A stretch of 64,000 nt of DNA from a virus (taxonomy: Duplodnaviria; Caudoviricetes), in the IMG/VR virus record IMGVR_UViG_3300017914_000750, positions 29,737 to 93,736 of that record. One strand, given 5' to 3'. Shown here in pieces: positions 28,335 through 44,585 of the stretch. A program made the translations under genes and the position numbers. Every line of letters begins with the position of its first letter. Within the stretch, counting starts at the first letter, position 1. Below the pieces are notes generated by a model. That model searched no databases. It had not been told where the DNA came from and saw only the letters and a program-made list of their open reading frames with translations.

Positions 28335-29027
28335 CTACTTGACTATGTCGTAATCTTCATTCAATGGGAAGTGATTCCAGTCGGGGTCTATATCCATTGC
28401 ATGGTCATTACTCATGTTTAATTTATGAGAAACAACATTAAAGGATATAGAATATCTATCTTTTTCTGTTCTATTTGGTTCAACCATATGCATCATAGCA
28501 CTTGGAAACAATATTAAAGACCCTGTTGTAGGTCTTATTCTATATGTATCCATTTGTCTTACATTATTTGGAAAGTCTGATACTACTTTTGGGTCTTTAT
28601 CGAGTGCAACAAAGTCTCCTTCATCGCCGTCTCCTTTAATATAAAAAGCACCACTATACCAACAACCATTATGTAAATGGGGTTTATTCCATGCACCATT
28701 ATCATTTATATTTGCCCATGAGTTACCTATATCTATTTGAATTTTACCTGTATTGATAGCATGAAATCCACAAATTTCGTTGTTGTAAATATCTTTTAAT
28801 ACTCTCATTATTTTTGTAAATGCTGGGTGTCTATCACAACCGTCATTTGATTGCCAACCACTATATGCATTTGATATGTTTCTACCAACTGGGTCTTTCT
28901 TTCTCATACCGTCTACAGCTTCTCTCAACATATCACAATAATCTTCTGTAATCCTACCACTCTCAATAAGATTTTCTTCGTATACTATCGTTGGAAATAG
29001 TAATCTAATTCCCTTTTTCATCGTCAC
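28335..29027 (-). CDS. putative 2OG-Fe(II) oxygenase (TIGR02466-like)
   Basis: SWANIN, HLH, SGAFY, LILFPS.MMHMVEPN, RYSISFN. Confidence 0.85.
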   Translation of the reverse strand: MTMKKGIRLLFPTIVYEENLIESGRITEDYCDMLREAVDGMRKKDPVGRNISNAYSGWQSNDGCDRHPAFTKIMRVLKDIYNNEICGFHAINTGKIQIDIGNSWANINDNGAWNKPHLHNGCWYSGAFYIKGDGDEGDFVALDKDPKVVSDFPNNVRQMDTYRIRPTTGSLILFPSAMMHMVEPNRTEKDRYSISFNVVSHKLNMSNDHAMDIDPDWNHFPLNEDYDIVK

Positions 29028-29940
29028 CGTCCCAATTTAATTCTGTTCTTTTCTTTTGTTCAACTTTAAAATCAAACTCCATTTGTTCTTCTTTCTTATG
29101 CATAGGACACTCAGGTGGTGGAGTATCTTCTGAGAATAATTTTGCCTTATTAGTTTTTATCTTGGCATTTCTATAACCACCAATGTTTAATTTTTCTGAA
29201 GCTTTCCTCTGTATATATTCACCTGTTGCTGGGTCTATTTTCATATGTCCACCTTCCATTTGCCATTTTTGCATTGACCTATCATGTATACCATGTGTTT
29301 GATACCATTCATTTGATTCTGCATAGGTATAAGTTGCATGATATTCTTCTCTTTTATATGGGACAAATTGACATATAGGTTGTCCAGCTGGTATAATGAA
29401 AGAATGATTAACTTTAGGATAAAATATAATTTGTGCATTATCCATATTCATATTAAAGTTATCCGTATCAATGATACCTTGCCATACTGCAAAATATTGA
29501 TTTTGAAATAAAAAAGGGTCTATAAAGAATGTGGAATACCCTTCGGGTGTTGTAATGTTCCACCTTTGACTTATTTTAAATGCGTCTTTGACTGGACAAT
29601 CTTCACCCATGTATTCAAATATATCTTCAAATTGTGAAGACCCATGTGAAGGTGAACGGATAGGACTATTAGGAGAGGTTACGAATATTTCATTTTCTTC
29701 GGGAAAATTCCAATCATGACCATTCATAACTGGTATATCTTGAGTTGCAATTATATACCAACCTAGTTTTAAATAATCGTCCATGGCTGGACATGACCTT
29801 AGAGTTTGAACTATTTGACCCCTATGGTGAACTTTTACTTTTGCTTTCTTCCACCATTCGGGGTGATAGTTCTTTGCAAGAACTGGTCTAAAGTTCTCAA
29901 AAGCACTTCCATCGAATGTTCTAAAATCAATTGTAGGCAT
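29005..29940 (-). CDS. hypothetical protein of the CP..D..G type seen beside phage 2OG-oxygenases (DUF6065-like)
   Basis: CPAMDDYLKLGW, WNITTPEGYS, GIIDTD, AGQPICQFVPYKRE. Confidence 0.55.
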   Translation of the reverse strand: MPTIDFRTFDGSAFENFRPVLAKNYHPEWWKKAKVKVHHRGQIVQTLRSCPAMDDYLKLGWYIIATQDIPVMNGHDWNFPEENEIFVTSPNSPIRSPSHGSSQFEDIFEYMGEDCPVKDAFKISQRWNITTPEGYSTFFIDPFLFQNQYFAVWQGIIDTDNFNMNMDNAQIIFYPKVNHSFIIPAGQPICQFVPYKREEYHATYTYAESNEWYQTHGIHDRSMQKWQMEGGHMKIDPATGEYIQRKASEKLNIGGYRNAKIKTNKAKLFSEDTPPPECPMHKKEEQMEFDFKVEQKKRTELNWDGDDEKGN

Positions 29941-30640
29941 ATCTATCCTGTTTATCTAGTAGTCTAACTTCGTCTCCTCTCAAGACTATAGACCTTCTAT
30001 CTATGTAGTTTGCATTTGAAGAAGGTGCTTCTGCACCATGTGGTATTCTACCGTCAAACATTAATAATCTATTCGGTTTAAATGCAACTCTTCCTATTTC
30101 AAACTCATTCATGTGGTCTTCTGTTCCAGTCTCTACATGTTGACTATAAAATCTTAAATCTCCACCCCAGTTATCATTCCAAAATGTATTTGTATAATAT
30201 AGAAAAGATAAATTAAAATCATCATCAAGACTACAATCAGCATGACAGCTTCCATTTTGACCCATAGTTTGAGAGTTGGTTCCCATATATTGAAATCGTA
30301 TCCAATCAAAAGAGAAATCAGTTCTTATTTTCTTATCTATGTAATCCATAAAATATGGATAGTAAAAGTTTGATTTACATTTTACTTTTTGTCCGTTGTT
30401 TGCTCTAAAATATGAAGCACCCCATAATTCATGACTAGGTAATCCACCTCTTTTTCTATTATCTACAGTTTGAACACAATTGTTCTTTTGCCAATTTGTT
30501 TGATTTCTTAGAAAGGAGTCTGTATGGTGGTGTAATTCAGCTGACAAATAATTGTCAAAGATATAAACTTTATTTCCTAGTGGGAGTTCTTCAATATAGA
30601 ACGGTGAATCACATTCTATTACTTCAATAGAATTAACCAT
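29927..30640 (-). CDS. 2OG-Fe(II) oxygenase
   Basis: HAD, LYY...WGGDLRF, FKPNRLLMFDGRIPHGA, RRSIV. Confidence 0.85.
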   Translation of the reverse strand: MVNSIEVIECDSPFYIEELPLGNKVYIFDNYLSAELHHHTDSFLRNQTNWQKNNCVQTVDNRKRGGLPSHELWGASYFRANNGQKVKCKSNFYYPYFMDYIDKKIRTDFSFDWIRFQYMGTNSQTMGQNGSCHADCSLDDDFNLSFLYYTNTFWNDNWGGDLRFYSQHVETGTEDHMNEFEIGRVAFKPNRLLMFDGRIPHGAEAPSSNANYIDRRSIVLRGDEVRLLDKQDRYAYN

Positions 30641-31184
30641 CTTGTATGACTGAAGAAGGTGGAAGAGTCATTATATAATCTTCTAAATCTCTTAGAGTGT
30701 CTTCTCTAGTTACAGATATGTCTCTGTAAATACCGTCTGCAACTGTATATGTTGCATCTGCAAACTCTAAGACCCTTCTTGCTTCAGACCTGTATGGGTG
30801 TGCTGAACCTTCTCTACCAGCATATATAGCGTCAAGAAAATTTTCAAATCCATATGCTTCACATTGAACTTCTATATTTCTTTTTACTGCGTCATGAACT
30901 CTATCAATGAATTGATTATTAAGAGTTACACCATGAGGTGGTTCTGAATTTTCAATGTATCTCTCAATTGCATCTCTATCTGTTTCTGATAAAGGTTGAG
31001 TGTCTTGTTCATCAAAAGGTTTGTCTTTATCCCATTCTAAAATTTTTACTTCGATTTGGTCATATACCAACACATCAAAGTCAAACCCTAAGTCTGGCTT
31101 ATCAACATTTTCAAATCTATATTCTAATCCGTTTGGTTTTCTTACTAATAAATTTCCAAACTCACAATATACTAATGCATTCAT
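30633..31184 (-). CDS. hypothetical protein, possibly tail-fibre assembly related
   Basis: C-terminal YGFENFLDA...PYRSEA...FAD resembles phage fibre-assembly proteins (recalled similarity, unverified). Confidence 0.4.
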   Translation of the reverse strand: MNALVYCEFGNLLVRKPNGLEYRFENVDKPDLGFDFDVLVYDQIEVKILEWDKDKPFDEQDTQPLSETDRDAIERYIENSEPPHGVTLNNQFIDRVHDAVKRNIEVQCEAYGFENFLDAIYAGREGSAHPYRSEARRVLEFADATYTVADGIYRDISVTREDTLRDLEDYIMTLPPSSVIQDG

Positions 31185-31204
31185 AATATCTCCATTCTAA
31201 CATA

Positions 31205-32743
31205 TTAGTTGTTTTTTGGCAACCCGTTTTTTACTCTATCGTAGTAACCTAACATATTTATGTTACTCGTATCCATGCCTTTAATCCAAGGGCCACCTCT
31301 TGTATAATGGATTGCATGTTCTGTTTTTTGAAATTTTGTATCGAATCCTTCTGTTGCAATTTTACCATGTGGTATTTTACTTACTTTATCAGTCCATTGA
31401 AACTGATGTAGATATTGTCCACTTGCAGTATTAATTAATTCGGGTGTTAGTTTCCTACAATCTTCATGACCATTATTAAAAATCATCATACTAGACCATA
31501 ATTTTTTAGGATATGATACATTCTTTTCTCCACCCATTTTAACTTCGTCATGGTGTTCAAAATCATATTGAACACATGCTACTGCATTGTCGGGGTCTAA
31601 GAAATAGAATAAAGGTAAGGGAGACCTTTGCCATATGTAATCGTTATCAATGAAGAAACTAAATCCTTCATAGTTTTCTAAATATGGAATTAAGAATCTA
31701 CTGTAAGTAAATTCAGTAGACTGTTGTGCATACTCTCTATTATACACTGGAATTTTAGAATAGTCAAGGCGTTTGACTTCTATTTTATAATCTTCAAAGA
31801 ACTCTTCTCCTACACCTTTACATTTTGACTTTTCTATGCTATCATGTATTGACTTTTCTGCAACTTCATGTATAATATCGTCATGACTTGAATCATAACC
31901 AATATAGATATTGATTGGTTTTTTCTTTGTTAGTTTATGCACCTTTCTATTAAAAGCATGAACTTGTTTTCTAAAGTCTGTTCCCCCATGGTCTATTGGA
32001 ACATTGATTTCTATTTTTCCTTGGTCTGTCCATATACCACTTATATTTTTTCTTCCCTTTGGAACTAATGAAGTCCAAAAATCTAAAAGGTTATCTACAT
32101 TTAGACTTGGGTGGTTTGAAAAACAGTTTGAATAGTCTGTAACTAAACAAGTCATATCGGGTTCGTCCATTGCTTGGAATGATTGACACCTCATAGAGCC
32201 TGGGTGTATATTAAGTTTACCGTTTTTAGTGTGTCCTTGGATAGGTTGCCAGAGACCTTCTTTTTGAATATTGTTTATTAACCAGTGTGCTTTTGCAGCG
32301 TGATAATAAACTGCAGCCACTTGATTTTCTTGAACTGGGTCTTCGTCTTGACCAGTTATTTGTTCATAGACACCGTCTTCAATCATATAGTCCATTGAAC
32401 CACCACCAATAGGGTGATTTTCTCTTAAATCTGCAGTCCAACCTTTATGAACAAAAGTAAAGTAATTTAATGAAGGATTTATTAAACCACCCCATTCTTG
32501 TAGGTCTCCTTCGTTCATTAATTTTTTGATATGTTTCCATGTAACTAATCTAATAGGTGGTAATGTATCCAAAATATGTTGCCATATTTCTTTTCTGTCT
32601 TCGATAGGTTTATGAGCTCTTTCACCTTCTGCCCATAATTGGGGAAGAATAAATTGTTCTTTAGGACGAGTTTCATATGTGAAACTATCGTTAAATAGTT
32701 CTTTTGCTCGTTCAAGGGTTTTGATTTCTTCAAATCTGTCCAT
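31205..32743 (-). CDS. fusion of a ParB/Srx-like N-terminal domain and a GT-A glycosyltransferase
   Basis: N half has LINNIQKEGLWQPI...IHPGSMR; C half has IYIGYD, STEFTYSRF, DxD (IDND), WSSMMIFN, IHYTRGGPW. Confidence 0.75.
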   Translation of the reverse strand: MDRFEEIKTLERAKELFNDSFTYETRPKEQFILPQLWAEGERAHKPIEDRKEIWQHILDTLPPIRLVTWKHIKKLMNEGDLQEWGGLINPSLNYFTFVHKGWTADLRENHPIGGGSMDYMIEDGVYEQITGQDEDPVQENQVAAVYYHAAKAHWLINNIQKEGLWQPIQGHTKNGKLNIHPGSMRCQSFQAMDEPDMTCLVTDYSNCFSNHPSLNVDNLLDFWTSLVPKGRKNISGIWTDQGKIEINVPIDHGGTDFRKQVHAFNRKVHKLTKKKPINIYIGYDSSHDDIIHEVAEKSIHDSIEKSKCKGVGEEFFEDYKIEVKRLDYSKIPVYNREYAQQSTEFTYSRFLIPYLENYEGFSFFIDNDYIWQRSPLPLFYFLDPDNAVACVQYDFEHHDEVKMGGEKNVSYPKKLWSSMMIFNNGHEDCRKLTPELINTASGQYLHQFQWTDKVSKIPHGKIATEGFDTKFQKTEHAIHYTRGGPWIKGMDTSNINMLGYYDRVKNGLPKNN

Positions 32744-32752
32744 AATATAAAG

Positions 32753-32760
32753 TATTTAGT
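32753..32760 (-). promoter_or_regulatory. late promoter variant ACTAAATA for the glycosyltransferase/oxygenase block
   Basis: TAAATA core 9 nt upstream of the ATG. Confidence 0.55.
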
Positions 32761-32769
32761 TGTTAAAAA

Positions 32770-33576
32770 TTAACTACCAATCGGAGTTGCAGGCCACTGT
32801 TGGTTTACATCTCCATCCCATCTTGCTTCAGGTGTTCTACCCTGTCTTGCATATGTAAATGGTGACCTATGGTCGTATGTAAATGGATTTTGACCAGTTC
32901 TCTGATAAGTTGAAGGTGACCTATAATCATATGTAAACGGTGTTTGACCCGTTCTCTGATATGTTGAAGGAGACCTATAATCATATGTGAAAGGTGTCTG
33001 ACCAGTTCTTTGATAAGTCGAAGGCGACTGATAATCGTAAGTAAATGGTGTTTGACCAGTTCTTTGATATGTTGAAGGAGACCTATGGTCATATGTAAAT
33101 GGAACCTGTTGGTCTCTTATATTTGGTTGTTGTGCTGACCTAATGTTAGGTTCTTGAGCATTTGCAATATAAGGACTAGGTTGTTGTATTGACCTAATAT
33201 TAGGTTCCTGTGCATTCACTGGATTTCTATAGGTGAATGGTGACCTATGAGAGTAAGTATTAGGTTGTCTCGCAGGTGCTTGATATGTAAATGGTGACCT
33301 ATAGTTATAAGTAAACGGGTTCCTTGCTGGTGCTTGATATGTGAAAGGAGACCTGTAATGATATGTAAACGGGTTCCTTGCTGGTGCTTGATATGTAAAC
33401 GGTGACCTATAGTGATAAGTAAACGGGTTCCTTGCTGGTGCCTGATATGTAAATGGCACCCTATGATGATAAGTAAATGGGTTCCTAGCATCGTTCTCAT
33501 ATATGAAAGGTTGCCTAAAAGAAAAGGGAACTGGCTGTCTAGCAGAAGAAATAAATGGTGATTGATATGTTGGCAT
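32770..33576 (-). CDS. Pro/Tyr/Gln-rich repeat protein (mirror partner of 33591..35003)
   Basis: 27 Pro-initiated units of 8/10/12 aa; GAGGAG SD. Confidence 0.85.
   Translation of the reverse strand: MPTYQSPFISSARQPVPFSFRQPFIYENDARNPFTYHHRVPFTYQAPARNPFTYHYRSPFTYQAPARNPFTYHYRSPFTYQAPARNPFTYNYRSPFTYQAPARQPNTYSHRSPFTYRNPVNAQEPNIRSIQQPSPYIANAQEPNIRSAQQPNIRDQQVPFTYDHRSPSTYQRTGQTPFTYDYQSPSTYQRTGQTPFTYDYRSPSTYQRTGQTPFTYDYRSPSTYQRTGQNPFTYDHRSPFTYARQGRTPEARWDGDVNQQWPATPIGS
32833..33558 (-). repeat. coding tandem repeats (54-nt period blocks)
   Basis: QAPARNPFTYHYRSPFTY and QRTGQTPFTYDYRSPSTY arrays. Confidence 0.9.
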
Positions 33577-33590
33577 TCTCCTCTATCCTC

Positions 33591-35003
33591 CTACTTCTGT
33601 TGTCTGTTATGAGCAAGTATATCATGTGCAAAATAGTTTTGATTTCCACTTACTTTTGTTAAATGGTATACTTTATGTAGACCTTCTAGTTTTTCTATAC
33701 AGTCGACTGCATGTTTAGGTGTGTTTTGTAAAATACATGATATTGTATCAATGATTTTATCACCTTCTTCAACTACACCTGAGATTTCTCCACCCCATGC
33801 TGTTCCTTCTGCAACTTCTTGTTCCCAATCTTCCATGCTTATAACACACCAACCTTTTCCGTCAACTTTGATTGGGTGTCCACCTGTTAGTTTTACACCT
33901 CTACCACCGAAAGATATTTCGTATAATTCACATTCTCTTGGAACCATTAGTTCTTCTACTTCACCTACCATGATTGTTAAATTCTCATCTGCAGTCATAA
34001 CCATATCACCAACTTCAACTTTTTGAATTGGCATATATGAACCGTCTTCCATCCAAATCATAGTATCTTCTGCGAAGCAACCACCACCTCGACCACCGCC
34101 TGGGAAGAAGACTGGTTGTCTTGCTTGGAAGGTGAATGGGTTTTGGAATGCACCAGTATTCGGTTGCTGAAGGTTTGCAATATAGGTAAATGGTTGCTGA
34201 GCACTTCTAATATTCGGTTGTTGAATATTCGCAGGATATGTAAATGGTTGTCTTGCACTTCTAATATTCGGTTGTTGAATATTTGCTGGGTAAGTAAACG
34301 GTTGCTGAGCATTTCTGATATTCGGTTGTTGAATATTTGCTGGGTAAGTAAACGGTTGCTGAGCATTTCTGATATTCGGTTGTTGAATATTAGCAGGATA
34401 TGTAAAAGGAACCTGACTATTTCTAATATTAGGTTCTTGTGCGCTTACTGGATTCTGATATGTAAACGGTGACCTATGGTCATATGTAAAAGGTGACCTT
34501 GCAATAGCTTGATAAGTTGAAGGAGACCTATAATTATATGTGAAAGGTGACCTATGAGAGTAAGTATTAGGCTGTCTTGCCTGTCTTATATTCGGTTCCT
34601 GTGCGTTTGCAATGTAAGGATAAGGTTGTTGTGCTGACCTTATGTTTGGTTCCTGTGCGTTTGCAATGTAAGGATAAGGTTGTTGTGCATTCCTGATATT
34701 AGGCTCTTGAGCATTTGCAATATAAGGGTAAGGCTGCTGAGCACTACGAATATTGGGTTCTTGAGCATTTGCAATATAAGGATAAGGTTGTTGTGCTGAC
34801 CTTATGTTTGGTTCTTGAGCATTTGCAATATAAGGATATGGAACCTGAGTTAATTCTTGACCTGAAGCGTTATTCCACCCTGAAGGTGTTTTAATATAAA
34901 TTTGGTCAACTGCTTTCCAGTTGTTAGGCCCTGTCTTTACCCAAGCTCCTTGGGTTTTGTTCCACCCAGTAGGGGTCTTAACCTTTTGATTACCTGATGC
35001 CAT
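33591..35003 (-). CDS. fibre-associated repeat protein with C-terminal Hint domain
   Basis: Trp-rich N-terminal cap (GW...W...IYIKTPSGW), 27 repeat units, GGGRGGG linker, Hint domain. Confidence 0.85.
   Translation of the reverse strand: MASGNQKVKTPTGWNKTQGAWVKTGPNNWKAVDQIYIKTPSGWNNASGQELTQVPYPYIANAQEPNIRSAQQPYPYIANAQEPNIRSAQQPYPYIANAQEPNIRNAQQPYPYIANAQEPNIRSAQQPYPYIANAQEPNIRQARQPNTYSHRSPFTYNYRSPSTYQAIARSPFTYDHRSPFTYQNPVSAQEPNIRNSQVPFTYPANIQQPNIRNAQQPFTYPANIQQPNIRNAQQPFTYPANIQQPNIRSARQPFTYPANIQQPNIRSAQQPFTYIANLQQPNTGAFQNPFTFQARQPVFFPGGGRGGGCFAEDTMIWMEDGSYMPIQKVEVGDMVMTADENLTIMVGEVEELMVPRECELYEISFGGRGVKLTGGHPIKVDGKGWCVISMEDWEQEVAEGTAWGGEISGVVEEGDKIIDTISCILQNTPKHAVDCIEKLEGLHKVYHLTKVSGNQNYFAHDILAHNRQQK
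33606..34079 (-). other. Hint (intein-like) autoprocessing domain
   Basis: Block A CFAEDT, IQKVEVGDMV, block B TGGHP, block F/G VYHL...NYFAHDILAHN; followed by RQQK and stop. Confidence 0.9.
34116..34841 (-). repeat. coding tandem repeats (54-nt period blocks)
   Basis: PYPYIANAQEPNIRSAQQ x5 and PFTYPANIQQPNIRNAQQ x4-5. Confidence 0.9.
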
Positions 35004-35038
35004 CTAAATTGTTATCCTCAAAAATATACTCTTATTTA

Positions 35039-36769
35039 TTAAGAGTAAAGAATCCATAAATCCCCAACTGCACCGTCTGAACCTGTAGGTGCTGAAGTTG
35101 ATTGGTATACATTTCTTGCTGTTCCGCCTGAATTAGTTGCATTTGTTATTGTTAATGCACCAGTATTTACTGCACTTGGTGTAATAGTCAAGTTACCTGT
35201 TGAAGCACCAGTGAATGAACCTGTTCCAAAAGTAACTGCGTCTGCACTTTCGTCCCAACCGATAAACACATTGTCTGAACTTCCTCTTTCAATTACGAAA
35301 CCAGCGTCATTTGAAGGTGAACCTGAAGTTCCAGTTCCTAACTCAATCAATGCATCATCGATTGTTGTATTTGTAGAAGATACAGTTGTTGTTGAACCGT
35401 TAACTGTAAGGTTACCTGAAAGTGTTAAGTTTGCAAACTGAACATTACTGTTTGTTGCAACTGCCTGACCGATACTAAACTCACCACCTGAATATGATAC
35501 ACCAGTTCCAGCACTTAAATGAGCTCTTACTTCTGCTGAATTTGGGCCGACATATGTAATAACACCACTTGAATTATCATATGCAAGTGAACCGTCTCCA
35601 CCTGAATCTGTTACTGAGATAGCACCTCTTGCATCTGAGTCTCCATAAGCTGCAGAACCAGCAAGTGTTAATGTTCCTGCTGAATCGTCATAAGTTGCAG
35701 TGATGTTTGAACCACCAACTATAAGAGCTGCAACTCTATCGTCAACTCTTTCGTTTGTGAAGTATAGATTACTTGAACCCTCTGAAAGAGCATCTGTATC
35801 TGCAAGAACAGTTCCACCTAATGCAGTAGAAGTTCCACCGATTGTGATTGAACTATTTGATAATGCACTGTTAGGTATTGAACCTGCTAATTTACTTGCA
35901 ACGATTGAACCTGCTAACATGTCGTTAGTGATACCACCTGATTTTACTTGAAGTGAATCTGAATCTATTTCGATTGAACTGTCATCTACTTGAACATTAA
36001 GGGTTACTGCACCTGTAGTTCCACCACCTGTTAAACCTGACCCAGCAGTAACTCCTGTTATGTCTGCTTGGTTAGTATTTGCAATGGTTAGTGTTCCAGC
36101 TGCATCGTCATATGTTTTTGAGATACCTGTTCCAGCAACTATAAGTGAAGCAACTCTATCGTCTACTCTTTCTGAAGTATGGAATAAATTTGTTGAACCT
36201 TCTGTAATGTCATCTGAATCACCTGATAGTTCTGATAATGCGTCTTTACTTGCAACTTGAGAATCTACATATGCTTTAACTGATTGTTGTGTTGGAATCT
36301 GTGTAGCAGAGTTCGAAGCCATATTGTCTTCGTCTAATATTGCAGTTCCACTTACACCAGTATTTAAAACTGCACTTGTAAGTGTTTTGTTTGTTAATGT
36401 TTGTGAACCTGTTAATGTTGCAACAACTGAAGTATCTACTTCAATATCGTCTGAGTTTACTGTAATACCTGTTCCTGAACCAATATTAAGTGTTGCATCA
36501 CCTGAAGTTGCAGTTCCAGTCAAACCAGCACCAGCATTAACTCCTGTAATATCACCTACATTACCAGTGATTGTAAGAGTTCCAGCAGAATCATTATAAG
36601 ATAATGATACCCCTGAACCTGCTTGGAGTAAAGTTCCCGCTATGTGGTCGTCAATAGTTTCTAAAGCATTTGTTCCGATTGAAGCTGCAGTTAAGTCTCC
36701 TGAGCTATCAATAACTTCTGTTGTTCCTACAGTAAGACCATTCTTGATTATAAAATTTTTCGATGTCAT
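35039..36769 (-). CDS. tail fibre protein
   Basis: G/S/T-rich with EGSxNLYFTNERVDDRV modules; C-terminal SAP...GDLW motif. Confidence 0.75.
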   Translation of the reverse strand: MTSKNFIIKNGLTVGTTEVIDSSGDLTAASIGTNALETIDDHIAGTLLQAGSGVSLSYNDSAGTLTITGNVGDITGVNAGAGLTGTATSGDATLNIGSGTGITVNSDDIEVDTSVVATLTGSQTLTNKTLTSAVLNTGVSGTAILDEDNMASNSATQIPTQQSVKAYVDSQVASKDALSELSGDSDDITEGSTNLFHTSERVDDRVASLIVAGTGISKTYDDAAGTLTIANTNQADITGVTAGSGLTGGGTTGAVTLNVQVDDSSIEIDSDSLQVKSGGITNDMLAGSIVASKLAGSIPNSALSNSSITIGGTSTALGGTVLADTDALSEGSSNLYFTNERVDDRVAALIVGGSNITATYDDSAGTLTLAGSAAYGDSDARGAISVTDSGGDGSLAYDNSSGVITYVGPNSAEVRAHLSAGTGVSYSGGEFSIGQAVATNSNVQFANLTLSGNLTVNGSTTTVSSTNTTIDDALIELGTGTSGSPSNDAGFVIERGSSDNVFIGWDESADAVTFGTGSFTGASTGNLTITPSAVNTGALTITNATNSGGTARNVYQSTSAPTGSDGAVGDLWILYS

Positions 36770-41674: not shown

Positions 41675-43306
41675 TTAGCCCTTAGAGAATTGTGCGTTTG
41701 GAACTGATTGGTGAATCTTTTCTACCGTTCCACTATCGTTTACATAAACCTCTTCTACTTTTTCAACACTTCCACTATTATTTCTGAAAATACCCTTAAC
41801 TTTTGCTACTGGGCCAATAGGTCTTGTAGTAGAATAAGGTGTTTGTCCTATTGAAGGAGACCTATGGTCATATGACACCTGATAGTTAAACTGATATGGG
41901 AACGGTTGTCTTGCAGGCAAGATATTAGGTTCTTGGTGGTTATCAGTTCTTTGATATATTGAAGGTGACCTATGATTATAGAAATTAGGTTGTCTAGTCG
42001 CTGCAATATATGGATACGGTTGTCCAGCATCTCTAATATTTGGTTCTTGTTGATTTGCAATATAAGGATAAGGATTTTGTCTATTTGCAATATACGGACT
42101 TGATTCTTGAGCATTTGCAATATACGGACTTTGTTTACTTGCAATATATGGACTTGTGTTCTGAATACTTGCAATATACGGATACCTTGTTTGTTTTATA
42201 GTCGGGTTCTGTTGTTGTGCTTGTGCAATATAAGGACTTGGTTGTTGTGCAATAAAAGGACTTCGTTGTTGTGCTTGTCCAATAGTCGGGTTTTGTATAT
42301 TTGCTTGATATGTATACGGTTGTTGTTGACTGATTATTGGAGTCGTTCCTATTGCTTGATATGTAAACGGGTTTGGTTGTTGCGTTTGTGCTGAACCAGG
42401 CGACCTATATTGATAATCAATAGGTTCACCGTATCTTCCACCACTTGGCCTTATTCCCCATTCGGGATTCTGTGCTTGTCCGATAACTGGGACTGGATTC
42501 TGTGCTTGTGCAATATAAGGATACGGTTGTTGCACCTGATTACCTTGAGCAGTAGAAGGGACTTGATAAGGCCCAACGGCTGGTGACCTATATGAATATA
42601 TTGTCCAATATGGGTCTATCTCGGGTTCAAATCTTGAAGGATATGGTGGAGTATAAAAAGGTGGAGCTCCAATCTGAGTAGTCCCAGTGGAGGGCACCTG
42701 CTGGTTGCCTTGAGCAGTAGTTTGAATATTATACGGAGCTCCTCCTGCTTGTGCTACTGGTCTTCTTGCAGCTTGAACTGGGTAAGTCGAAGGGTTTGCA
42801 TTTTGAGTATTATAAGGACTTGGGTCTCTTGCATCATACGAACTCCTTGCTTGTCCTTGATAAGTAAATGGGTTCGGTGACCTATGCTGATAAGGTGTTT
42901 GTCCTCTTGCCTGATAAGTAGACGGTGACCTTTCCGTTGCATTATAGATAACTGGTTGTCTATGTTGATATGTAAATGGACTTTGACTTTGTGCTTGATA
43001 AGTTGTAGGTGTTTGTCCTTGTGCTTGATATGTGCTTGGAGACTGGAATTGATATGTTATTGGTGTTGTTCCTATTGCAATATAGAATCCAGGCGATTGG
43101 ATACTTCTAATAAAAGGGTGTTGTCTATTTGCAGTATTCTGAGAAGTAAAAGGACTTCTTGCACTAAAAGTAAAAGGATTTTGTCCTTGTCTTAAAGTTT
43201 GTCTTATTGTTTGTCTTGATACTGGGTTCTGAACTTGTATAGTTGTCTGACCCTGATAGGGTTGTTGAAAACTCGAACCTATATTTACATAAATTTCGTC
43301 AGCCAT
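41675..43306 (-). CDS. Pro/Gln/Tyr-rich repeat fibre protein with internal mirror symmetry
   Basis: Same unit vocabulary as the 32770/33591 pair; C-terminal cap VEEVYVNDSG. Confidence 0.8.
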   Translation of the reverse strand: MADEIYVNIGSSFQQPYQGQTTIQVQNPVSRQTIRQTLRQGQNPFTFSARSPFTSQNTANRQHPFIRSIQSPGFYIAIGTTPITYQFQSPSTYQAQGQTPTTYQAQSQSPFTYQHRQPVIYNATERSPSTYQARGQTPYQHRSPNPFTYQGQARSSYDARDPSPYNTQNANPSTYPVQAARRPVAQAGGAPYNIQTTAQGNQQVPSTGTTQIGAPPFYTPPYPSRFEPEIDPYWTIYSYRSPAVGPYQVPSTAQGNQVQQPYPYIAQAQNPVPVIGQAQNPEWGIRPSGGRYGEPIDYQYRSPGSAQTQQPNPFTYQAIGTTPIISQQQPYTYQANIQNPTIGQAQQRSPFIAQQPSPYIAQAQQQNPTIKQTRYPYIASIQNTSPYIASKQSPYIANAQESSPYIANRQNPYPYIANQQEPNIRDAGQPYPYIAATRQPNFYNHRSPSIYQRTDNHQEPNILPARQPFPYQFNYQVSYDHRSPSIGQTPYSTTRPIGPVAKVKGIFRNNSGSVEKVEEVYVNDSGTVEKIHQSVPNAQFSKG

Positions 43307-43307
43307 A

Positions 43308-44585
43308 TCATACTACAAACCAAAGGTGACCAGTCGATGTAGAACCAGCACTTGAAGGTGCTGAGTTAACTATTTCATAATCCAATTCGACATCATCACC
43401 ATCGATTTTCACTCCGTTTGAAGTATTAACTGAGAAGACACCTGACCCACTCATTGCAAGTCCACTGCCTCCACTTAAATAAGATTGAACATCTGAATCA
43501 CCATATTGTGCAGAACCATTGATTGTCAATGTTCCAGCATTGTCGTCATATGATGTTGAGATACCTGTTCCACCAACAATTAATGTATTAACTCTATCGT
43601 CAACTCTTTCATTTGTAAAATATAAATTACTTGAACCCTCTGTTACTGTATCAGAAGTTTGTTGATTAGTTGGAACATATTTACTTGAAGAAGCATTATA
43701 TACTAATATCTGACCGTCTGAAGGTGCAGTAGTGTCAACATCACTTAAATCTGTTATTTGGTGATTTGTAATACTTGATACTGTTCCAGTCAATGCACCT
43801 GTAGAAGCGTCTAAAACAACTGAACCACCATGTTTAACATCACCAGTGATATCACCAGTAACATTTCCAGTTAGGTTACCAACTAAAGAAGTAGAAGTAA
43901 GAGAACTAAATCCAGTTCCAACTCCACCTGTAATAGTTGCAGTCCCGTCTGTTAATGTAGGTGCTTCTAATGAATGACCTGTATCGACTTTAACATTACC
44001 GTCAACAAAAGTGTTACCTTCTAACTGAACCTGATATCCTGATTGTAATGATACTGCAGCTGCAGATGTTCCATTTAATATGACTCCGTTTGAGTTAATG
44101 TTGTAAATTGTGTTCTCTGCTGTTTCTGTAAACTGACCACCACCAGCACCACCGTCTGCAGCTACACCTGATTGAGAACCAGTGTATGCATATACAGTTA
44201 AAATTTGACCAGCAGTAGGAGCTGCATTCAAGAGGATACCAGTATAGAATAATCCTTGAGGTATTTGAATTGTATAACCGTTTGCACCACTACCACCTTC
44301 TACTAAGTGAACTCCGTCTAGGTATACTTGAACTTTACCTTGTCTATATCTTAAAACATTTCCATTTGCGTCTGCACCTGAATATGATTGGTCTGTAGTT
44401 GTTGTATATTCGAATGTTTGTAAGAAGAATGTTTTATCTTCAAGGACATTAATTGCATCAACAAGAGAGTTAGGGTTATTAAGAGTTCCTCTTAAACCCG
44501 TGATACTTCCCACTTCATTATTCAGTGTATTGAACGAATTTCTAAATTCGTTTAAAGTCTGTTCTGCATTTACTTGATTAGCCAT
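43308..44585 (-). CDS. fibre / whisker-like virion protein
   Basis: TLNEFR N-terminus, EGSSNLYFTNERVDDRV module, C-terminal SAP...GHLWF. Confidence 0.65.
   Translation of the reverse strand: MANQVNAEQTLNEFRNSFNTLNNEVGSITGLRGTLNNPNSLVDAINVLEDKTFFLQTFEYTTTTDQSYSGADANGNVLRYRQGKVQVYLDGVHLVEGGSGANGYTIQIPQGLFYTGILLNAAPTAGQILTVYAYTGSQSGVAADGGAGGGQFTETAENTIYNINSNGVILNGTSAAAVSLQSGYQVQLEGNTFVDGNVKVDTGHSLEAPTLTDGTATITGGVGTGFSSLTSTSLVGNLTGNVTGDITGDVKHGGSVVLDASTGALTGTVSSITNHQITDLSDVDTTAPSDGQILVYNASSSKYVPTNQQTSDTVTEGSSNLYFTNERVDDRVNTLIVGGTGISTSYDDNAGTLTINGSAQYGDSDVQSYLSGGSGLAMSGSGVFSVNTSNGVKIDGDDVELDYEIVNSAPSSAGSTSTGHLWFVV

What the first reader, a model, noticed from the sequence alone, without database searches (positions are those of the whole stretch)
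32770..35003. Two adjacent genes encode exactly mirror-image repeat ladders: a candidate split antiparallel protein zipper with a unit-pairing code
Seen: parsing at unit-initial prolines, 33591..35003 (aa 55-296) gives lengths 10,8,10,8,10,8,10,8,10,8,8,8,10,8,12,8,10,8,10,8,10,8,10,8,10,8,8. The next gene, 32770..33576 (aa 7-248), gives 8,8,10,8,10,8,10,8,10,8,10,8,12,8,10,8,8,8,10,8,10,8,10,8,10,8,10, the exact reverse; each has 27 units and 242 aa. Opposed units are complementary in type. PNIRxxQx faces PxTYxx(R/Q)x, PYPYIANAQE faces PSTYQRTGQT, and PFTYPANIQQ faces PFTYQAPARN. The single 12-mers (PFTYQNPVSAQE and PFTYRNPVNAQE) face each other, and in the central block the two chains swap unit types. 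The DNA is not an inverted repeat, so the symmetry is at protein level. Inference: the chains zip antiparallel into a long filament, and repeat expansions in one gene must be matched in the other. I do not recognise this as a described system.
Basis: partly seen in the sequence, partly recalled or inferred. Interest (0 to 1): 0.95.

Follow-up and report, generated by a model that had tools for sequence, protein, structure and literature searches.

The report
Mirror-image two-gene phage fibre zipper
Two neighbouring genes of an uncultured marine T4-like phage encode proline-punctuated repeat proteins whose unit ladders are exact mirror images, and 58 related phages keep this mirror, the equal lengths and a strict unit-pairing rule, which points to an undescribed two-chain antiparallel beta-type fibre.

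Summary
Gene A (33591..35003, minus) and gene B (32770..33576, minus) each carry 27 units over 242 aa, and A's unit lengths equal B's read backwards. In 58 non-redundant A/B pairs from marine viral contigs, prolines of A coincide with prolines of reversed B for 91% of positions. The best forward shift gives 58%. Reverse beats forward in 58 of 58 pairs, always at one fixed register. Repeat lengths track each other from about 190 to 530 aa (r=0.97). All prolines share one parity (2062:3 and 1845:32) and aromatics take the other. PNIR/PYIA-type 8-mers face PxTY-type 8-mers in 665 of 665 cases. Covariation links the N-half of one unit to the C-half of its partner, with size compensation. There is no DNA inverted repeat or antisense relation. 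The best reading is an antiparallel A:B beta-type fibre in the host-recognition cluster of a pelagimyophage-like phage. Binding itself is inferred; no structure could be predicted. It is absent in many relatives. I found no family, structure or paper describing the pair.

The parts
33591..35003 (-). Gene A, 470 aa: N-domain, repeat ladder, Gly linker, Hint domain and a 4-aa tail
   Evidence: ORF. At least 417 homologues (only the 8000 best candidates were scored) and 315 viral-contig matches.
34842..35003 (-). A N-terminal conserved domain (aa 1-54), Trp/Lys-rich and predicted to be short beta strands. Proposed base or attachment end.
   Evidence: Many invariant columns in 35 sequences. AF2 gives strands at only pLDDT 40-56.
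34116..34841 (-). A repeat ladder (aa 55-296): 27 units of 8, 10 or 12 aa
34080..34115 (-). A apex linker (aa 297-308), Gly-rich. Residue -1 of the Hint domain is Gly.
   Evidence: The -1 residue is Gly in 65 of 65 Hint-bearing homologues.
33606..34079 (-). BIL-type Hint autoprocessing domain (aa 309-466: Cys1, TGGHP block B, terminal His-Asn)
   Evidence: Sub-threshold Pfam Hint-clan hits. Catalytic residues invariant. PDB sequence hits to BIL2 and a BIL domain. AF2 pLDDT about 90, and Foldseek top hits 6y75/6tmm/2lwy at E 2e-10 to 5e-9.
33591..33605 (-). C-extein-like tail (RQQK) plus the stop codon. The +1 residue is Arg, which is not a nucleophile.
   Evidence: A proteins without Hint end in similar short tails after the Gly-rich stretch, often ending in Lys.
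33577..33590 (-). 14-nt spacer with a GGAG-type ribosome-binding site for B. A and B lie in different frames.
32770..33576 (-). Gene B, 268 aa: repeat ladder plus a conserved C-terminal tail
   Evidence: ORF. A B-like ORF follows A in nearly all loci.
32833..33558 (-). B repeat ladder (aa 7-248): 27 units, the reverse of A's ladder
32773..32832 (-). B conserved C-terminal tail (RWD...QQWP...). In the mirror register it lies at the same end as A's N-domain.
   Evidence: the register is fixed at the RWD position minus 3 in nearly all pairs
35039..36769 (-). Upstream fibre-like structural gene (576 aa), conserved upstream of A
   Evidence: phrog_697 structural protein. A homologue lies upstream in 54 of 57 loci.
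31205..32743 (-). Downstream 512-aa protein whose C-half is a glycosyltransferase. It follows B within about 100 nt in most loci and may modify the fibre (not tested).
   Evidence: phrog_28018. tblastn hits to phage glycosyltransferases over aa 277-490. A homologue is present in 57 of 57 loci and scored downstream of B in 54; the other 3 look like ORF-calling artefacts.

Best explanation
A and B are co-translated subunits of a heteromeric fibre. Their repeat domains lie side by side in antiparallel register, with position x in A against position c-x in B, from A's first proline to B's last.

Both chains keep an unbroken two-residue periodicity. Pro, Ile, Thr and Asp sit on one parity, and Phe, Tyr, Ala, His and Val on the other. 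This fits an extended beta conformation, most simply a long two-stranded antiparallel beta-ribbon or bundles of such ribbons.

Each rung pairs a bulky PxTY-type half-unit from one chain with a slim PNIR/PYIA-type half-unit from the other. The 12-mers are self-complementary points where the chains swap roles. Unit gains and losses in one gene survive only when the mirror position of the other gene is matched.

A's conserved N-domain and B's conserved C-tail form one end, probably the virion attachment. A's C-terminus and B's N-terminus form the apex, which carries lineage-specific add-ons. In this window the add-on is a BIL-type Hint domain that removes itself by cleavage at the Gly-Cys bond.

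Shown: the mirror, the length covariation, the parity, the pairing rule, the Hint fold and the conserved gene module. Inferred: binding, beta-ribbon geometry, fibre role, base/apex polarity and Hint chemistry.
For: - Mirror in the window.
- Family-wide mirror at a fixed register: 0.91 reverse against 0.58 forward, 58 of 58 pairs.
- Specific to the cognate partner, and destroyed by shuffling unit order.
- About 50 different ladders, each with A = reverse(B).
- Length r=0.97 and matched differences between near relatives.
- Parity: Pro 2062:3 and 1845:32; Phe and Tyr more than 96% on the other parity in both chains, in the same mirror frame.
- 8-mer pairing: 665 opposite-type, 0 same-type.
- Mutual information is concentrated between slim-unit positions 1 and 3 and bulky-unit positions 5 and 7, and between slim positions 5 and 7 and bulky position 1. 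The swaps compensate for size: Ala/Gly with Phe, and Asn/Arg/Gln with Ser/Thr/Leu/Ala.
- Aromatic-aromatic oppositions nearly vanish at register 0 or -2 (164 and 17 of about 6100) but reach 350-840 at the other offsets.
- No DNA or antisense explanation.
- A 14-nt spacer with its own ribosome-binding site separates the genes.
- The pair lies among tail-fibre-like genes of a T4-type structural module, in what is called the host recognition cluster of pelagimyophages (PMC7029224).
- The fibre-A-B-glycosyltransferase-oxygenase module is conserved in 50-57 of 57 loci.
- Hint.
Against: - There is no direct evidence of binding or of any fold. AF2 leaves the repeats at pLDDT about 30-40.
- No cultured phage carries the pair, so virion location is unproven.
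- Seven or eight loci have unmatched lengths, differing by 18, 36, 44 or 88 aa. Either a mismatch is tolerated or those assemblies collapsed repeats.
- The even face shows no cross-chain covariation.
- The exact register (Pro opposite Pro, or shifted by 2) is unresolved.
- The loci are related, so the counts are not independent events.
Confidence: 0.75

Rival explanations
1. A and B do pair antiparallel, but not as a simple two-stranded ribbon. Each unit could be a rung or strand of a larger multi-chain beta assembly, for example several A:B pairs forming a sandwich, tube or solenoid, with the aromatic face as a buried core of constant volume.
For: Covariation is confined to the aromatic (odd) face and conserves volume. 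An isolated ribbon of 190-530 residues would hardly be stable. Known phage fibres are oligomeric (general knowledge).
Against: Nothing here discriminates between the two. This refines the best explanation rather than contradicting it. The unbroken parity over the whole domain argues against turns that would reset the phase between units.
Confidence: 0.3
2. There is no lateral pairing. A and B join end to end (A's C-terminus to B's N-terminus), or line up in opposite directions on a common ruler. The mirror would then reflect an overall two-fold symmetry of a rod.
For: Gene order A then B puts A's C-terminus next to B's N-terminus. The mirror alone would allow this reading.
Against: Mirror-related units would lie far apart. 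That gives no reason for a strict opposite-type rule (0 of 665 same-type), for size-compensating covariation between specific positions, or for avoiding aromatic-aromatic opposition only near one register.
Confidence: 0.06
3. The mirror is a by-product of DNA history, with B an inverted or antisense duplicate of A, and has no present function.
For: An antisense copy of a repeat array would carry the same unit lengths in reverse order (reasoning only).
Against: Both genes lie on the same strand. Only three weak inverted arms were found. Antisense and retro translations are not similar (E of 0.06 or higher against a tiny database), while A and B are 44-48% identical in the forward sense. Recent indels in relatives are matched in both genes, which needs ongoing selection.
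Confidence: 0.02
4. It is a chance or parsing artefact of a mostly alternating 10/8 pattern.
Against: The parse-free proline test, the unit-order shuffles and the non-cognate controls all reject this. Highly irregular ladders of 36-53 units are mirrored too.
Confidence: 0.01
5. The pair is real but is not a virion fibre. It could be an intracellular or secreted beta-rich scaffold, or an amyloid-like material made during infection.
For: No proteomic evidence places it in virions. The composition is rich in Gln, Asn and Tyr. Curli-like genes are reported in pelagimyophages (PMC7029224).
Against: The pair lies inside the late structural region, directly after a fibre-like gene in 54 of 57 loci. 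It has conserved terminal domains of the kind used for docking.
Confidence: 0.1

Closest known systems
Antiparallel coiled-coil arms and heterodimeric leucine zippers (for example SMC/Rad50 arms)
   Same: Two segments run antiparallel. Their lengths must match, and a positional code decides what faces what. Interruptions have to be mirrored in the partner segment (general knowledge).
   Different: Those are alpha-helical heptad repeats. Here there is proline every 8-12 residues, a strict two-residue period and no heptads. This is an analogy of logic only, with no homology.
Beta-repeat phage and virus fibres (T4 gp5 triple beta-helix octapeptide repeats, adenovirus/reovirus triple beta-spiral)
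   Same: Short repeats of about 8-15 aa build long thin beta fibres encoded in tail-fibre regions (PMC3004832 for T4; otherwise general knowledge).
   Different: Those are parallel homotrimers of one gene product. No two-gene mirror and no opposite-type rule are known for them. No sequence family match was found.
BIL domains: Tetrahymena BUBL1 BIL2 (6y75/6tmm) and the Clostridium thermocellum BIL (2lwy)
   Same: These match A's C-terminal domain. They are the best sequence and structure matches. They share Cys1, a block-B His, a terminal His-Asn, a non-nucleophilic +1 residue and Gly at -1. BIL domains mainly cleave (PMC7664689). BIL2 conjugates its upstream Gly-ended domain to lysines (PMC8616854).
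   Different: About 22-24% identity. The host protein is a phage repeat fibre, the C-extein is only 4-13 aa, and the activity is untested.
C-terminal intramolecular chaperone domains of phage tailspikes and fibres (Peptidase S74 type)
   Same: A self-removing C-terminal domain on a fibre protein (general knowledge). This is a functional analogy for the Hint domain.
   Different: A different fold and chemistry (Ser-Lys dyad against Cys thioester and Asn cyclisation). Many relatives here lack the domain altogether.

Membership tests
Hint superfamily, BIL-type (A aa 309-466) | Hint fold | tested here: met
   AF2 pLDDT about 90 over aa 310-466. Foldseek top hits are BIL2 6y75 (E 2e-10, target TM 0.83) and BIL 2lwy (E 5e-9, target TM 0.85), followed by mini-inteins and hedgehog 1at0.
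Hint superfamily, BIL-type (A aa 309-466) | N-terminal Cys/Ser nucleophile, block-B Thr-x-x-His, C-terminal His-Asn | tested here: met
   C309, T373, H376, H465 and N466 are invariant or nearly invariant in 35 sequences. TGGHP is the commonest TxxHP variant among those counted.
Hint superfamily, BIL-type (A aa 309-466) | No nucleophilic +1 residue (this separates BIL domains from class 1 inteins, PMC7664689) | tested here: met
   The +1 residue is Gly 34, Phe 16, Met 4, Leu 4, Ile 3, Arg 2, Lys 1 and Ser 1 among 65 proteins. It is Arg in the window.
Hint superfamily, BIL-type (A aa 309-466) | Pfam gathering score for a Hint-clan model | tested here: not met
   Vint scores 26.3 bits against a cut-off of 27, Hint 22.5 against 29.7, and Intein_splicing 16.3 against 35.8. 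The match is sub-threshold by sequence, and the fold search settles it.
Hint superfamily, BIL-type (A aa 309-466) | Autoprocessing activity (cleavage, splicing or conjugation) | not testable with these tools
   This needs expression and mass spectrometry.
Canonical class 1 intein | Cys/Ser/Thr at +1, and insertion in a conserved site of a host protein with exteins on both sides | tested here: not met
   The +1 residue is non-nucleophilic in 64 of 65 proteins, and the C-extein is only 4-13 aa. The domain is 151-168 aa with no endonuclease.
Triple beta-helix fibre repeats (T4 gp5 type) | Octapeptide with periodic Val and Gly (VxGxxxxx) | tested here: not met
   The units start with Pro and have no periodic Gly. 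No PHROG or Pfam fibre family matches A or B.
Collagen-like or polyproline-II fibres | Three-residue periodicity (Gly-X-Y) | tested here: not met
   The periodicity is strictly two residues, and Gly is rare inside the ladder.
Any curated protein family for the repeat domains of A and B | A significant profile match | tested here: not met
   Pfam and PHROGs give no match for B or for A's repeat region. tblastn against 50,697 phage records finds nothing. ESM Atlas hits all score under 0.85.

The most novel reading that the evidence does not exclude
A and B form a continuous heterodimeric two-stranded antiparallel beta-ribbon hundreds of residues long (about 65-180 nm across the family). It would be held in register by a simple residue-level knob-and-hole code, in effect a beta counterpart of the coiled-coil zipper. 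In Hint-bearing lineages the BIL domain at the apex would use its Gly thioester to close the hairpin covalently onto B's nearby N-terminus, or to conjugate the fibre tip to another amine, as Tetrahymena BIL2 does with ubiquitin-like domains.
Probability: 0.2. Interest if true: 0.95.

Novelty: categorically new. Interest (0 to 1): 0.88.

Why it matters
If the pairing is physical, this is a new way to build a long protein rod. Two different chains would be laid antiparallel and kept in register by mirrored proline punctuation and a bulky/slim unit code, and length would be tuned by coupled repeat gain and loss in two genes.

- It would give protein designers a natural, readable beta-zipper code.
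- It would give evolutionary biologists a clean case of inter-gene repeat co-evolution, with about 50 ladder variants already in hand.
- It would give marine virologists a candidate host-recognition fibre. The phage group is related to those infecting SAR11 and OM43, and near-identical sequence occurs in seawater metagenomes of at least seven studies.
- The mirror rule also serves as an internal check on metagenomic assembly of these repeat genes.

Tried and rejected
- **Complex prediction of A(1-308) with B:** no verdict, score 0.00, controls not run. This is not evidence either way.
- **AF2 of the single-chain relative P0121 with 33 homologues:** mean pLDDT 43.5. Only a small C-terminal sheet was confident.
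- **AF2 of A with 35 homologues:** the repeats stayed at pLDDT about 30, and only the Hint domain was confident.
- **ESM Atlas search for B:** nearest clusters scored under 0.85 and no model is held.
- **GenBank phage records:** megablast and tblastn of A, A's N-domain, B and P0121 found no match.
- **Alternative C-terminal domains:** Pfam scans of those domains in relatives found nothing above cut-off.
- **Public runs:** short-read unitigs break inside the repeat arrays, so they cannot confirm the unit counts. One metatranscriptome covers only part of A, which does not show transcription.
- **Antisense, retro and alternative-frame origin of the mirror:** rejected.
- **Literature:** searches for the motifs and for similar fibres found nothing relevant.
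- **Greedy N-to-C unit parsing:** it mis-splits 6+8 units (a 'da' against 'ad' order in the ladder strings). I therefore relied on the parse-free proline test.
Full report
**What is there**

The window is a piece of a 93.7-kb IMG/VR virus record estimated at about 52% complete. It carries a T4-type structural module with major head, portal, sheath, terminase and baseplate genes. Its major capsid protein is 65-67% identical to those of Methylophilales phage Melnitz and Pelagibacter phage HTVC008M. The phage is therefore an uncultured relative of the pelagimyophages.

The two genes sit among fibre-like genes. This region was described for pelagimyophages as the hypervariable host recognition cluster (PMC7029224).

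Gene A (33591..35003, minus strand, 470 aa) has these parts:
- a conserved 54-aa N-domain;
- a 242-aa proline-punctuated ladder;
- a Gly-rich linker;
- a 158-aa Hint domain;
- a 4-aa tail.

Gene B (32770..33576, minus strand, 268 aa) starts 14 nt after A's stop codon. It has its own GGAG ribosome-binding site and lies in another frame. B consists of a 242-aa ladder plus a conserved 20-aa tail.

**Check of the observation**

I therefore used a parse-free test: do A's proline positions x coincide with B's proline positions c-x?
- In the window, 33 of B's 36 prolines are mirrored in A. The best forward shift gives 22.
- Shuffling the order of B's units gives 0.405 +/- 0.07 (maximum 0.64 of 300 shuffles), against 0.917 observed.
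- Even the prolines inside units are mirrored (+4 in one 10-mer against +6 in its partner, and +6 against +6 in the 12-mers).
- There is no inverted repeat in the DNA.
- Antisense, shifted-frame and retro translations are unrelated, while A and B are 44-48% identical in the forward sense. They share a vocabulary of units but use it in opposite order.

**Relatives**

A has at least 417 homologues in the metagenomic protein collection (only the 8000 best candidates were scored) and 315 matches in IMG/VR. Eighty of those loci were fetched. In nearly all of them, A is followed by a B-like proline-repeat ORF. After removing duplicates there are 58 A/B pairs.

The opposite is found:
- **Length.** Ladder lengths correlate at r=0.97 over 189-531 aa in the 52 pairs without extra C-domains, and 41 of them agree within 10 aa.
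- **Orientation.** Mirrored proline coincidence averages 0.91, against 0.58 for the best forward shift. Reverse beats forward in 58 of 58 pairs. In almost every pair the best register places A's first ladder proline opposite B's last proline, three residues before the RWD motif.
- **Specificity.** An A protein matches its own B (mean 0.91) far better than other loci's B (mean 0.55). Its own B ranks first for 50 of 58 A proteins.
- **Diversity.** There are about 50 different ladders, some very irregular and up to 53 units long. Parsing each protein independently gives A = reverse(B) throughout.
- **Near relatives.** Loci whose A N-domains are at least 90% identical differ by matched amounts in both genes: -36/-34, 58/60, 71/72, -85/-85, 80/80, 158/158, -169/-168 and -18/-18.

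The exceptions all involve eight loci (L017, L030, L032, L039, L044, L047, L061, L075). For six of them (L032, L039, L044, L047, L061, L075) the mismatch with the nearest relative is a whole number of repeat periods (18, 36, 44 or 88 aa). That fits slippage in a single gene or repeat collapse during assembly. In L030 the start of B is probably mis-called.

**Anatomy that bears on mechanism**

*Parity.* Over the 47 pairs kept for this count, prolines fall on one parity 2062:3 in A and 1845:32 in B. Ile and Asp share that parity. Phe, Tyr, Val, His, Ala and Glu fall almost entirely on the other. Placed in the mirror frame, the aromatic parity is the same for both chains. An uninterrupted two-residue period over 190-530 residues indicates an extended beta conformation. 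It rules out alpha-helical or polyproline-II/collagen-like structure.

In an antiparallel beta pair, residues i and j with i+j constant face each other and point to the same side. The prolines could then all sit at the positions that do not hydrogen-bond to the partner strand. This geometric reading is inference.

*Pairing rule.* Among 8-mer rungs, PNIR/PYIA-type units face PxTY-type units 665 times, and same-type pairs occur 0 times (about 330 expected). PYPY 10-mers face PxTY 10-mers. 12-mers face 12-mers and are self-complementary, with a PxTY-like first half and a slim second half. They mark the points where the chains swap roles.

*Residue-level covariation.* In 352 distinct 8-mer pairs, mutual information is concentrated in two places. 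One is between slim-unit positions 1 and 3 and bulky-unit positions 5 and 7. The other is between slim positions 5 and 7 and bulky position 1. These values are 0.57-1.05 bits. Same-end combinations give only 0.14-0.26 bits although those positions are just as variable.

The swaps compensate for size. Ala or Gly goes with Phe, and Asn, Arg or Gln goes with Ser, Thr, Leu or Ala. Asn/Arg at slim positions 1 and 3 goes with His or Tyr at bulky position 5. Tyr/Ala at slim positions 1 and 3 goes with Ala or Asn there.

This N-half to C-half coupling gives a second line of evidence for antiparallel contact, taken from inside the units rather than from their order. It does assume the mirror register.

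*Register.* Aromatic-aromatic oppositions on the odd face number 164 at the Pro-opposite-Pro register and 17 at a shift of -2, out of about 6100 rungs. At other shifts they number 350-840. Aromatic-to-Ala/Gly oppositions peak at the same two registers. The exact register is therefore known only to within two residues.

**Ends of the pair**

A's conserved part is its N-domain, and B's is its C-terminal tail. In the mirror register these lie at the same end, which I read as the base or attachment end. At the other end, A's Gly-rich linker faces B's first residues, forming the apex.

The apex is where lineages differ. Many A proteins stop a few residues after the Gly run. Others carry unrelated extra domains there (L055, L078-L081). 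In L068 the extra part looks like a degenerate Hint domain. Others, like the window's A, carry the Hint domain. One locus with Hint (L002) and one without (L040) have N-domains 91% identical and nearly equal ladders. The Hint domain is therefore an optional insertion, and the fibre does not depend on it.

**The Hint domain**

- By sequence it is just under Pfam's cut-offs.
- Cys1, the TxxH block and the terminal His-Asn are invariant.
- The -1 residue is Gly in 65 of 65 proteins, and the +1 residue is non-nucleophilic in 64 of 65.
- The AF2 model is confident, at about pLDDT 90.
- Its best structural matches are the BIL2 domain of the Tetrahymena BUBL1 locus and the Clostridium thermocellum BIL domain, ahead of mini-inteins and hedgehog. 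These are also the best sequence matches in the PDB.

BIL domains lack the +1 nucleophile and mostly give cleaved products (PMC7664689). BIL2 transfers its upstream Gly-ended domain to lysines (PMC8616854). The most likely role here is self-removal by cleavage at Gly308/Cys309. Covalent closure onto B's nearby N-terminus, or conjugation at the fibre tip, is possible but unsupported.

**Gene module**

In 57 related loci:
- a homologue of the upstream fibre gene is present in 54;
- a homologue of the 512-aa protein with a glycosyltransferase C-half is present in all 57, within about 100 nt of B's end in most of them (3 are scored as overlapping B, apparently an ORF-calling artefact);
- the next ORFs are conserved in 50-57, including two 2OG-Fe(II) oxygenase-like genes.

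Post-translational tailoring of the ladder is a reasonable guess but was not tested. These loci are related, so the conserved order may reflect shared ancestry alone.

**What could not be shown**

No tool gave a structure for the ladder. No cultured phage has the genes. Public short-read assemblies break inside the arrays. Binding, stoichiometry, fibre length (about 80 nm if fully extended, my estimate) and virion location are all inferences.

**Novelty**

There is no Pfam, PHROG, PDB or GenBank-phage match for the ladders, and no paper in the library holds the motifs. The nearest analogies are antiparallel coiled-coil arms, which share the logic but not the fold, and homotrimeric beta-repeat phage fibres, which share the material but not the two-gene mirror. 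I rate the architecture as categorically new, with the caveat that the evidence is purely comparative.

**Earlier scan notes**

Notes on this same stretch had already flagged the Hint domain at the apex, the downstream modification genes and a single-chain relative. I checked each of these here only to the extent stated above and under the passing observations.

Noticed in passing
window 41675-43306 (-), protein P0121: This 543-aa protein uses the same unit vocabulary and may be a single-chain hairpin version. Its N arm (aa 15-175) and C arm (aa 329-495) keep one proline parity. They mirror each other at x+y=510, with 13 Pro-Pro pairs and 0 aromatic-aromatic oppositions. An inner segment fits x+y=484. 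The signal is weaker than for A/B, and AF2 gave no model except a confident small C-terminal sheet at aa 500-538.
   Followed up: partly
window 28335-32743 (-): The block downstream of B is conserved in 50-57 of 57 related loci. It holds a 512-aa protein with a glycosyltransferase C-half, a 183-aa ORF, a 2OG-Fe(II) oxygenase (FlmC-like), a 311-aa ORF and a TIGR02466-family protein. It may tailor the fibre, but the substrate is unknown.
   Followed up: partly
loci L039, L044, L047, L032, L061, L075 compared with their near relatives: In these loci only one of the two genes differs, by 18, 36, 44 or 88 aa, which is a whole number of repeat periods. They are either natural unmatched variants or collapsed repeats in short-read assemblies. 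The mirror rule could be used to flag such errors.
   Followed up: partly
L055:6001-7365, L068:6001-7266, L078:4547-6706: Some A homologues carry other C-terminal domains at the apex in place of a clear Hint domain, and these match no Pfam family. In L055 and L078 they are candidate receptor-binding tips, and a small extra ORF then separates A and B. In L068 the C-terminal part looks like a degenerate Hint domain.
   Followed up: partly
window 35039-36769 and 43308-44585 (-): The fibre-like genes that precede A/B and P0121 both end in a similar motif (SAP...G-D/H-L-W). This motif might dock the repeat proteins. An earlier scan note also flagged it.
   Followed up: no
ladders of A and B in all loci: The composition is extreme. 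In the ladders of the 47 pairs counted there is almost no Lys (25 and 35 residues), Trp, Leu or Met. A Lys-free ladder would avoid self-conjugation by a Hint thioester, but this may be coincidental.
   Followed up: no
window 32700-35100: At least half of this stretch's sampled words occur in 14 seawater metagenome runs from 7 studies (2014-2025). The phage lineage therefore recurs widely in the ocean.
   Followed up: partly
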